Below are positions 40,818 to 40,925 of a stretch of 47,050 nucleotides of DNA, one piece after another (positions within the stretch are counted from its first letter, which is position 1; each line of letters begins with the position of its first letter). A program made the position numbers and the translations under genes. The DNA is from a virus (taxonomy: Duplodnaviria > Heunggongvirae > Uroviricota > Caudoviricetes). The notes under the pieces were generated by a model, which saw nothing but the letters and a program-made list of their open reading frames with translations, had not been told where the DNA came from and searched no databases. The stretch lies in IMG/VR virus record IMGVR_UViG_3300045051_000179, positions 1 through 47,050 of that record. One strand, given 5' to 3'.

Positions 40818-40925
40818 CTATATGCACCGAGGGGTCGCGGGTTCGAGTCCCGTTAAGGACGAGTTGATGGATTTGCTAACCGTATCTCCTTATAAACTCA
40901 GTGGTAGAGTTCCTCGGCAATTATG
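40818..40925 (+). ncRNA. YrlA-type Y RNA (permuted tRNA-like domain)
   Basis: order T-arm, loop-closed acceptor stem TAAGGA/TCCTTA, D-arm AGTGGTA; ends pair as CCGAGG/CCTCGG. Confidence 0.65.

What the first reader, a model, noticed from the sequence alone, without database searches (positions are those of the whole stretch)
40818..40925. Permuted tRNA-like RNA (YrlA-type Y RNA) co-transcribed with RNase P RNA
Seen: tRNA parts in swapped order. The T-arm GCGGG-TTCGAGT-CCCGT comes first, then an acceptor stem TAAGGA/TCCTTA closed by a loop of about 27 nt, then the D-arm ACTC-AGTGGTA-GAGT. The ends pair as CCGAGG/CCTCGG, extended past a bulged CA. No canonical anticodon loop can be rebuilt. Known: this is the architecture of bacterial YrlA Y RNAs, which bind Ro60/Rsr and act in RNA decay and repair. 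No Ro60 gene is in this window. Inference: it recruits or decoys host or phage Ro60, or is a tRNA mimic against anticodon nucleases.
Basis: partly seen in the sequence, partly recalled or inferred. Interest (0 to 1): 0.72.

Follow-up and report, generated by a model that had tools for sequence, protein, structure and literature searches.

The report
Lone back-to-front tRNA look-alike in phage
A soil phage carries, right behind its own RNase P RNA gene, one intact tRNA-shaped RNA module with its parts in swapped order. It has the shape of bacterial YrlA Y RNAs but none of their Ro60-binding marks, and no relative has it, so it is a one-off tRNA mimic of unknown use.

Summary
At 40827-40917 (+) lie a closing stem, a canonical T-arm, a 6-bp acceptor-like stem closed by a 27-nt loop, and a canonical D-arm. 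All tRNA tertiary-contact bases are present and there is no anticodon loop.

The YrlA reading is supported only for topology:
- Rfam YrlA scores 28.4 bits (cut-off 69). The same model gives up to 27.4 bits on ordinary tRNA-tRNA junctions in related phages.
- The GNCGAAN0-1G Ro60 motif and the long terminal stem are absent.
- The complete 111-kb phage has no TROVE, vWA, RtcB, RNA ligase or CCA-adding enzyme match.

No homologue exists in about 1.5 Mb of related or RNase P-bearing loci. Twelve relatives go from RNase P RNA to tRNA-Gln: directly in most, after about 130 nt in L033/L034. In the closest relative (a soil-run contig) this slot holds 149 other letters.

New here: the element is the first of about eight small hairpin RNA modules in the tRNA island, each introduced by ACTAYATR.

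Best reading: a strain-specific, Ro60-independent tRNA-mimic cassette, probably handled by tRNA enzymes. A recombination relic is not excluded. This scan has noted similar permuted tRNA mimics in other phages. Interest is moderate to low.

The parts
40443..40471 (+). Sigma-70-type promoter TTGACA-17-TATACT upstream of the RNase P RNA; presumed start of the transcript that carries the element
   Evidence: 11 of 12 matches, TG before the -10 box
40480..40817 (+). Phage RNase P RNA, bacterial class A, reduced form; its 3' end abuts the leader motif
   Evidence: 93.9 bits, E 7.9e-29, cut-off 100; homologous in 12 related loci
40817..40824 (+). Leader motif ACTATATG, the first of eight ACTAYATR copies in the tRNA island
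40827..40833 (+). Closing stem, 5' strand CCGAGGG (anticodon-stem 3' strand equivalent)
40837..40853 (+). T-arm GCGGG-TTCGAGT-CCCGT
40854..40892 (+). Acceptor-like stem TAAGGA/TCCTTA closed by a 27-nt loop (40860-40886). Predicted RNase P site between U40885 and C40886 (inference)
   Evidence: site inferred from the RNase P rule of 12 stacked pairs and from the M. smegmatis YrlA precedent (PMC4201824)
40896..40910 (+). D-arm ACTC-AGTGGTA-GAGT, preceded by linker TAA (40893-40895)
40911..40917 (+). Closing stem, 3' strand TCCTCGG
40926..41033 (+). Second structured domain closed by the 9-bp stem ATCACGAGT/ACTCGTGAT. 40951-41037 is the only part of the insertion kept in the closest relative
   Evidence: (I2)
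41034..41300 (+). Three further hairpin modules, each led by ACTAYATR (41034, 41143, 41213)
41302..41454 (+). 50-aa predicted membrane peptide ORF at the end of the block that is absent from relatives. Its membrane character is my reading of the hydrophobic translation, not a computed result
   Evidence: no homologue other than itself

Best explanation
The element is a real, structurally intact, circularly permuted tRNA-like RNA module with the topology of the YrlA tRNA-like domain.

It is the first of about eight small hairpin RNA cassettes in the phage tRNA island. Each cassette is introduced by the leader ACUAYAUR. It is transcribed from the promoter that drives the phage RNase P RNA.

Inferred steps:
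- It is separated from the RNase P RNA at the leader.
- It folds into a tRNA-like L shape.
- It is recognised by tRNA-handling enzymes. RNase P would cut the 27-nt loop between U40885 and C40886, followed by 3' trimming, as happens to M. smegmatis YrlA. This would give a nicked, non-decoding tRNA mimic.
- It then occupies or titrates a tRNA-binding factor.

It most likely works without Ro60. It is a strain-specific cassette rather than a conserved gene of this phage group.
For: - Four helices and all tRNA tertiary bases are intact.
- It is the only such architecture in 1.75 Mb of tRNA-rich phage DNA and among 346 junctions.
- It is not a junction of two array tRNAs. No tRNA is called on either side. 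No parent tRNA exists in the phage or its relatives. 44 of 47 phage tRNAs encode CCA, but the element has G-AGU after its acceptor strand.
- It shares the ACTAYATR leader with seven other closed hairpin modules. The window has 9 motif hits against 2.85 expected, and 0 of 100 shuffles reach that. All eight ACTATAT[AG] copies in the genome are on the + strand, six of them within 4.4 kb.
- In relatives the same leader follows directly on tRNA-CCA and precedes conserved non-tRNA RNAs.
- A strong promoter lies upstream and no terminator-like site lies before the element.
- The acceptor stem has 6 pairs plus a C.C at position 1:72, with U at -1. This is close to the 7-bp M. smegmatis YrlA stem that RNase P cuts (PMC4201824).
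- No TROVE, vWA or RtcB match in the phage. The Ro60 motif is absent.
Against: - There are no expression, end-mapping or binding data. No RNA run was listed.
- There is no homologue anywhere searched, so no covariation and no proof of selection.
- In the closest relative (a 107.8-kb contig of run X5), 40814-40950 is replaced by 149 other letters, while the flanks are about 92% identical.
- The segment is not unusually stable (z -0.39).
- Whether the leader is a processing site or a promoter is unresolved.
- The partner factor is unknown.
Confidence: 0.45

Rival explanations
1. It is a true YrlA-type Y RNA that binds the Ro60/Rsr protein of the unknown host and tethers or gates it, as in Deinococcus and Salmonella.
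For: - It has the same permuted topology, and the Rfam YrlA model aligns end to end.
- Some bases of the YrlA internal loop (AUGC, UG) are matched.
- The acceptor-like stem length is known to vary among YrlAs (10.1101/312249).
Against: - The score is 28.4 bits against a cut-off of 69, and is background-level: up to 27.4 bits on tRNA-rich sites of related phages.
- GNCGAAN0-1G, the YUAY/V region and the long terminal stem are absent.
- No Ro60 lies within 4 kb or anywhere in the phage.
- The one large unknown early protein is OB-fold, RPA/SSB-like, not Ro-like.
- The MAG that holds a terminase relative has no TROVE match, which is weak evidence.
Confidence: 0.12
2. It is a functionless by-product of recombination in a fast-changing tRNA island: the inner halves of two tandem copies of a tRNA-Gly(GCC)-type gene, with both break points in the anticodon loop. 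It is still intact only because it is young.
For: - It is a singleton. It is absent from 12 relatives, which go from RNase P RNA to tRNA-Gln (directly in most, after about 130 nt in L033/L034).
- The slot is replaced in the closest relative.
- The D-arm and T-arm 19-mers are identical to a bacterial-type tRNA-Gly(GCC) contig from the same habitat type (X3 record 7).
- The best tRNA matches are Gly(GCC) genes.
Against: - No parent tRNA has this acceptor or anticodon stem.
- There is no CCA after the acceptor strand, although 44 of 47 phage tRNAs encode it.
- It would need two precise deletions.
- It sits behind the same leader motif as the other RNA modules.
- None of the 22 pairs is mismatched.
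Confidence: 0.28
3. It is purely a processing handle, like the mascRNA of MALAT1. A tRNA-like fold recruits RNase P or 3' trimming enzymes to separate the RNase P RNA from the downstream RNAs, and the mimic has no role of its own.
For: - In most relatives the RNase P RNA is followed at once by tRNA-Gln, whose 5' processing would free the RNase P RNA.
- In this phage tRNA-Gln is displaced to 41516.
Against: - In the permuted layout the RNase P site lies inside the element, about 70 nt past the RNase P RNA end.
- The ACTAYATR leader already marks a likely cut between the two.
Confidence: 0.1

Closest known systems
[quoted passage not shown] 2014 (PMC4201824), Wang et al. 2018 (10.1101/312249)
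   Same: - The order T-arm, closed acceptor-like stem, D-arm.
- The chain enters and leaves through the anticodon-stem equivalent, with no anticodon loop and no free CCA.
- The tRNA tertiary bases are kept.
- The acceptor stem is near 7 bp, like the RNase P-cleavable M. smegmatis YrlA.
   Different: - No GNCGAAN0-1G motif, no YUAY/V region and no long stem formed by the 5' and 3' ends.
- No Ro60 gene nearby or anywhere in the genome.
- A 27-nt loop on the acceptor-like stem.
- The Rfam score is far below the cut-off and no higher than tRNA junction background.
- No relatives.
Small stable non-tRNA RNAs of phage tRNA clusters (T4 species 1 and 2, rnaC/rnaD), and the modular 'handle plus interchangeable interior' RNAs noted by this scan in other phages
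   Same: - It is encoded inside a phage tRNA operon.
- It is one of several hairpin modules that share a short common leader.
- One interior is a sealed tRNA imitation.
   Different: - The leader here (ACUAYAUR) differs from the handles described in those notes (stem plus ACAGCAA or YACAGC).
- No Ro60-shaped protein lies next to it.
- The comparison with T4 rests on my own knowledge and was not tested.
Circularly permuted tRNA genes (Cyanidioschyzon merolae type) and two-piece tmRNA genes
   Same: The 3' half is encoded before the 5' half, with a stem joining the acceptor strands.
   Different: - No anticodon loop can be rebuilt from the flanks (GCA / CAAUUAUG, no U33).
- No G3:U70, CCA or tag reading frame.
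- ARAGORN and Rfam report no tmRNA.
- No ligase is encoded in the phage.
mascRNA-type tRNA-like processing elements (MALAT1/MEN-beta 3' ends)
   Same: A tRNA-like fold placed directly behind a long stable non-coding RNA in one transcript.
   Different: Those elements are not permuted, and RNase P cuts at their 5' border. Here the predicted cut is internal.

Membership tests
YrlA (RF02553) | Score at or above the Rfam gathering cut-off (69 bits) | tested here: not met
   28.4 bits. The same model gives 22 bits on a tRNA-His/tRNA-Val junction of this phage and up to 27.4 bits at tRNA-rich sites in related phages.
YrlA (RF02553) | Permuted tRNA-like domain (T, AS, D) with tRNA tertiary bases | tested here: met
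YrlA (RF02553) | GNCGAAN0-1G motif near the 5' end (presumed Rsr contact; PMC4201824) | tested here: not met
   In the model alignment this position reads ACUAUAUG.
YrlA (RF02553) | Long stem formed by the 5' and 3' ends that holds the Ro60 site (10.1101/312249) | tested here: not met
   Only the 7-pair closing stem exists. The model's lower stem keeps 2 of 6 pairs. Beyond it there are a few A-U pairs only.
YrlA (RF02553) | Encoded within about 4 kb of a Ro60/Rsr gene on the same strand (PMC4201824) | tested here: not met
   No TROVE or vWA match in the complete 111-kb genome. The neighbouring ORFs encode 50-78 aa.
YrlA (RF02553) | Conservation with covariation among relatives | tested here: not met
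   No homologue in relatives or in other RNase P-bearing loci. The slot is replaced in the closest relative.
YrlA (RF02553) | Binding by Rsr; modification by TruB or DusA | not testable with these tools
   This needs biochemistry.
Permuted decoding tRNA gene | Joining the ends restores a 7-nt anticodon loop with U33 and a purine at 37 | tested here: not met
   The flanks read GCA and CAAUUAUG. ARAGORN gives no call.
Two-piece (permuted) tmRNA | G3:U70, CCA end, tag reading frame, tmRNA model match | tested here: not met
   Position 3:70 is C:G and the acceptor strand is followed by G-AGU. No tmRNA from ARAGORN or Rfam.
ACTAYATR-led hairpin modules of this phage's tRNA island (defined here) | The leader motif is followed within about 10 nt by a closed stem | tested here: met

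The most novel reading that the evidence does not exclude
The ACUAYAUR-led modules form a cassette system of small RNAs that phages of this group swap at the leader. This cassette is a Ro60-independent tRNA decoy, tethered next to the phage's own RNase P ribozyme. It would then be either a natural in-cis RNase P substrate that sets the ribozyme's 3' end, or a sponge for a host tRNA-targeting defence or tRNA-binding enzyme.
Probability: 0.08. Interest if true: 0.75.

Novelty: new variant of a known kind. Interest (0 to 1): 0.4.

Why it matters
If it is functional, YrlA-style inside-out tRNA mimics would be shown to arise and be used without Ro60, as exchangeable cassettes of phage tRNA operons. 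It would also supply a small natural substrate sitting beside a phage-encoded RNase P ribozyme. As it stands it is a single-genome curiosity. It is also a caution for annotators: sub-threshold YrlA model hits inside tRNA arrays are mostly ordinary tRNA junctions.

Tried and rejected
- blastn of 40400-41300 against 50,697 phage records: no match.
- Flanking 78-aa and 259-aa proteins as bait for relatives: no real relatives.
- Pattern T-loop...D-loop in viral contigs: three hits, all ordinary tandem tRNAs.
- The 50-aa ORF finds only itself.
- No RNA holder was listed among sequencing runs.
- Contigs of X2-X4 leave 40817-40950 uncovered.
- Exact 26-mer of the RNase P RNA in viral and metagenome contigs: nothing.
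- The RNase P-clade pattern gave about 150 loci. None has a homologue of 40810-41520 by nhmmer or by the single-sequence covariance model R1. The best other hit, 30.4 bits, is a junction of two tRNA-Gly genes.
- Leader-plus-T-loop pattern in viral contigs: 98 unrelated AT-rich hits, being tmRNA or tRNA parts and coding DNA.
- Terminase search in 185,579 genomes: one 1.9-kb contig in an Actinomycetes MAG. That MAG has no match to the region and no TROVE match, so it is only a weak hint about the host.
- Phage genome searched for RtcB, PolyA_pol, RNA ligase and T7-type RNA polymerase: none. The RNA polymerase search had no positive control.
- Hidden Ro60 test: the 403-aa phrog_2319 protein folds with pLDDT 92.8 into OB-fold, RPA/SSB-like domains, not a Ro ring.

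Full report
**Setting.** The window is the first 47 kb of a complete 111,050-bp IMG/VR phage genome with direct terminal repeats. The phage comes from rhizosphere or soil samples. Positions 35.5-44.9 kb hold 47 ARAGORN tRNA genes. Inside this island, a sigma-70-type promoter (TTGACA-17-TATACT, 40443-40471) precedes a reduced class A RNase P RNA at 40480-40817 (93.9 bits, E 7.9e-29). The finding lies directly behind it.

**Observation.**
- Closing stem: CCGAGGG (40827-33) pairs with TCCTCGG (40911-17).
- T-arm: GCGGG-TTCGAGT-CCCGT (40837-53).
- Acceptor-like stem: TAAGGA/TCCTTA (40854-59 and 40887-92), closed by a 27-nt loop.
- Linker UAA, then D-arm ACTC-AGTGGTA-GAGT (40896-40910).
- The bases that make tRNA tertiary contacts are all present: U8, A14, G15:C48, G18, G19, T54, Psi55, C56, A58 and G53:C61.
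- No anticodon loop can be rebuilt from the flanks.

ARAGORN calls neither a tRNA nor a tmRNA here. The tRNA-like fold costs only 2 kcal/mol more than the minimum free energy fold (-27.1 against -29.1). The segment as a whole is not unusually stable (z -0.39).

A strict four-helix scan of the phage plus 195 related loci (1.75 Mb, both strands) returns only this site. Among 346 distinct T-arm-then-D-arm junctions, it alone has full acceptor and closing pairing. The claimed extension past a bulged CA is weak, being a few A-U pairs.

**Is it a YrlA?** The Rfam model aligns end to end, but at 28.4 bits against a cut-off of 69. The control matters here. The same model gives 22 bits on the tRNA-His/tRNA-Val junction of this phage. 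It gives 15-27.4 bits on many sites in the tRNA-rich records of 11 of 25 related phages. I take those to be tRNA junctions by analogy, without checking each one. The hit therefore reflects a T-arm followed by a D-arm, not YrlA ancestry.

The features that define YrlA in Chen et al. 2014 (PMC4201824) and Wang et al. 2018 (10.1101/312249) fail one by one.
- GNCGAAN0-1G aligns to ACUAUAUG.
- The YUAY/V region is deleted.
- The lower stem keeps 2 of 6 pairs.
- There is no TROVE, vWA or RtcB match in the complete genome.
- The neighbouring ORFs encode only 50-78 aa.
- The one large unexplained early protein (403 aa, phrog_2319) folds at pLDDT 92.8 into OB-fold, RPA/SSB-like domains, not a Ro60 ring.

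What works like YrlA is the topology. What fails is family membership.

**Relatives.** Terminase relatives (40 loci) include 12 with the RNase P RNA. In all of these the ribozyme gene is followed by tRNA-Gln(CTG): within about 10 nt in most, and after about 130 nt in L033/L034. In most of them tRNA-Glu follows. In the window tRNA-Gln(CTG) sits at 41516. So 40815-41515 is a block of about 700 nt that is special to this phage.

About 150 further RNase P-bearing phage loci were fetched by pattern. They show no homologue of the block by nhmmer. The single-sequence covariance model R1 finds none either; its best other hit, 30.4 bits, is a junction of two tRNA-Gly genes.

One closer relative exists as a 107.8-kb contig in soil run X5.
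- Its RNase P RNA is about 92% identical.
- 40814-40950 is replaced by 149 other letters.
- 40951-41037 is kept, with 8 differences.
- 41038-41591 is replaced by 470 letters.

There is therefore no covariation evidence, and the slot is variable.

**Origin.** The arms resemble tRNA-Gly(GCC). The best tRNA matches are Gly(GCC) genes. A bacterial-type tRNA-Gly(GCC) contig in run X3 shares both 19-mers exactly. But no tRNA in the phage or its relatives has this acceptor or anticodon stem. Also, 44 of 47 phage tRNAs encode CCA, whereas the element has G-AGU after its acceptor strand. So it is not simply a fresh junction of two array tRNAs.

**New context.** The 8-mer ACTAYATR starts at 40817, directly before the element. 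It recurs at 41034, 41143, 41213, 43474, 43564, 45030 and 45123.
- The window has 9 hits against 2.85 expected, and 0 of 100 shuffles reach that.
- All eight ACTATAT[AG] copies in the genome are on the + strand, six of them within 4.4 kb.
- Each copy is followed within about 10 nt by a closed hairpin module.
- In relatives the motif follows directly on tRNA-CCA and precedes conserved non-tRNA RNAs.

The element is thus module 1 of a set of small RNA cassettes that share a leader. Whether the leader is an RNase E-type processing site or a promoter is unresolved. The replaced segments in the X5 relative begin and end within 3 nt of leader copies, which suggests exchange of whole cassettes.

Earlier notes of this scan describe comparable 'handle plus interchangeable interior' RNAs in other phages, some with permuted tRNA interiors, usually beside a Ro60-shaped protein. 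Here the leader differs and no such protein is present.

**Mechanism (inference).**
- The transcript from 40443 carries the RNase P RNA, the cassettes, a 50-aa ORF and tRNA-Gln.
- The element is probably freed at the leader and folds into an L shape.
- With 6 pairs plus a C.C at position 1:72, and U at -1, it resembles the M. smegmatis YrlA that RNase P cleaves and that then receives CCA (PMC4201824).
- A cut between U40885 and C40886 would give a nicked tRNA mimic.
- With no anticodon loop it cannot decode. It could occupy an enzyme or defence factor that recognises the tRNA elbow or acceptor.

None of this is shown.

**Verdict.** The YrlA interpretation is supported for architecture only. 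The best reading is a Ro60-independent, strain-specific tRNA-mimic cassette (confidence 0.45). The rivals are a young recombination relic (0.28), a true Y RNA for host Rsr (0.12) and a pure processing handle (0.10). I class it as a new variant of a known kind, with interest 0.4.

Noticed in passing
window 40817, 41034, 41143, 41213, 43474, 43564, 45030, 45123 (+): The motif ACTAYATR is strongly clustered in the tRNA island. Each copy precedes a closed hairpin RNA module. In relatives it abuts tRNA-CCA. Whether it is a promoter or an RNA processing site is unresolved.
   Followed up: partly
L051 482-4110; L041 3996 and 5701; L046 45 and 1491: Distant terminase relatives carry CCTCCC-ACTATATA-CACCAACCATTACGG, repeated up to six times in 4 kb. 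This looks like a phage-specific promoter or regulatory repeat that shares the ACTATATA core.
   Followed up: no
loci L065-L209: A pattern specific to this slimmed RNase P RNA (GCAACAGWGACGA...GTGAAACGGG) hits 29 viral contigs, some of 160-330 kb, and more than 119 metagenome contigs. Phage-type RNase P RNAs may therefore be widespread.
   Followed up: partly
window 40926-41033, with 40951-41037 conserved in the run X5 relative: A structured domain closed by a 9-bp stem is the only part of the phage-specific block kept, at about 91% identity, in the closest relative. It overlaps a 30-aa basic ORF (40933-41025).
   Followed up: no
window 7584-8795 (-): A 403-aa phrog_2319 protein of unknown function folds confidently (pLDDT 92.8) into OB-fold, RPA/SSB-like domains. 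Cysteines C116, C119 and C146 are invariant and may bind zinc. It is conserved in relatives and has a Streptomyces homologue.
   Followed up: partly
G000 108619-109665 (-): A tyrosine integrase gene lies near the right end of a phage that has direct terminal repeats.
   Followed up: no
window 42458-42534 (+): Rfam finds a tRNA here (46.7 bits) that ARAGORN does not list. ARAGORN's tRNA-Ser(act) at 44480-44580 overlaps tRNA-Asn and looks spurious.
   Followed up: no
run X3, record 7: A bacterial-type tRNA-Gly(GCC) contig from a rhizosphere sample shares two exact 19-mers (the D-arm and T-arm regions) with the element. It is possibly the kind of tRNA from which the mimic descends.
   Followed up: partly
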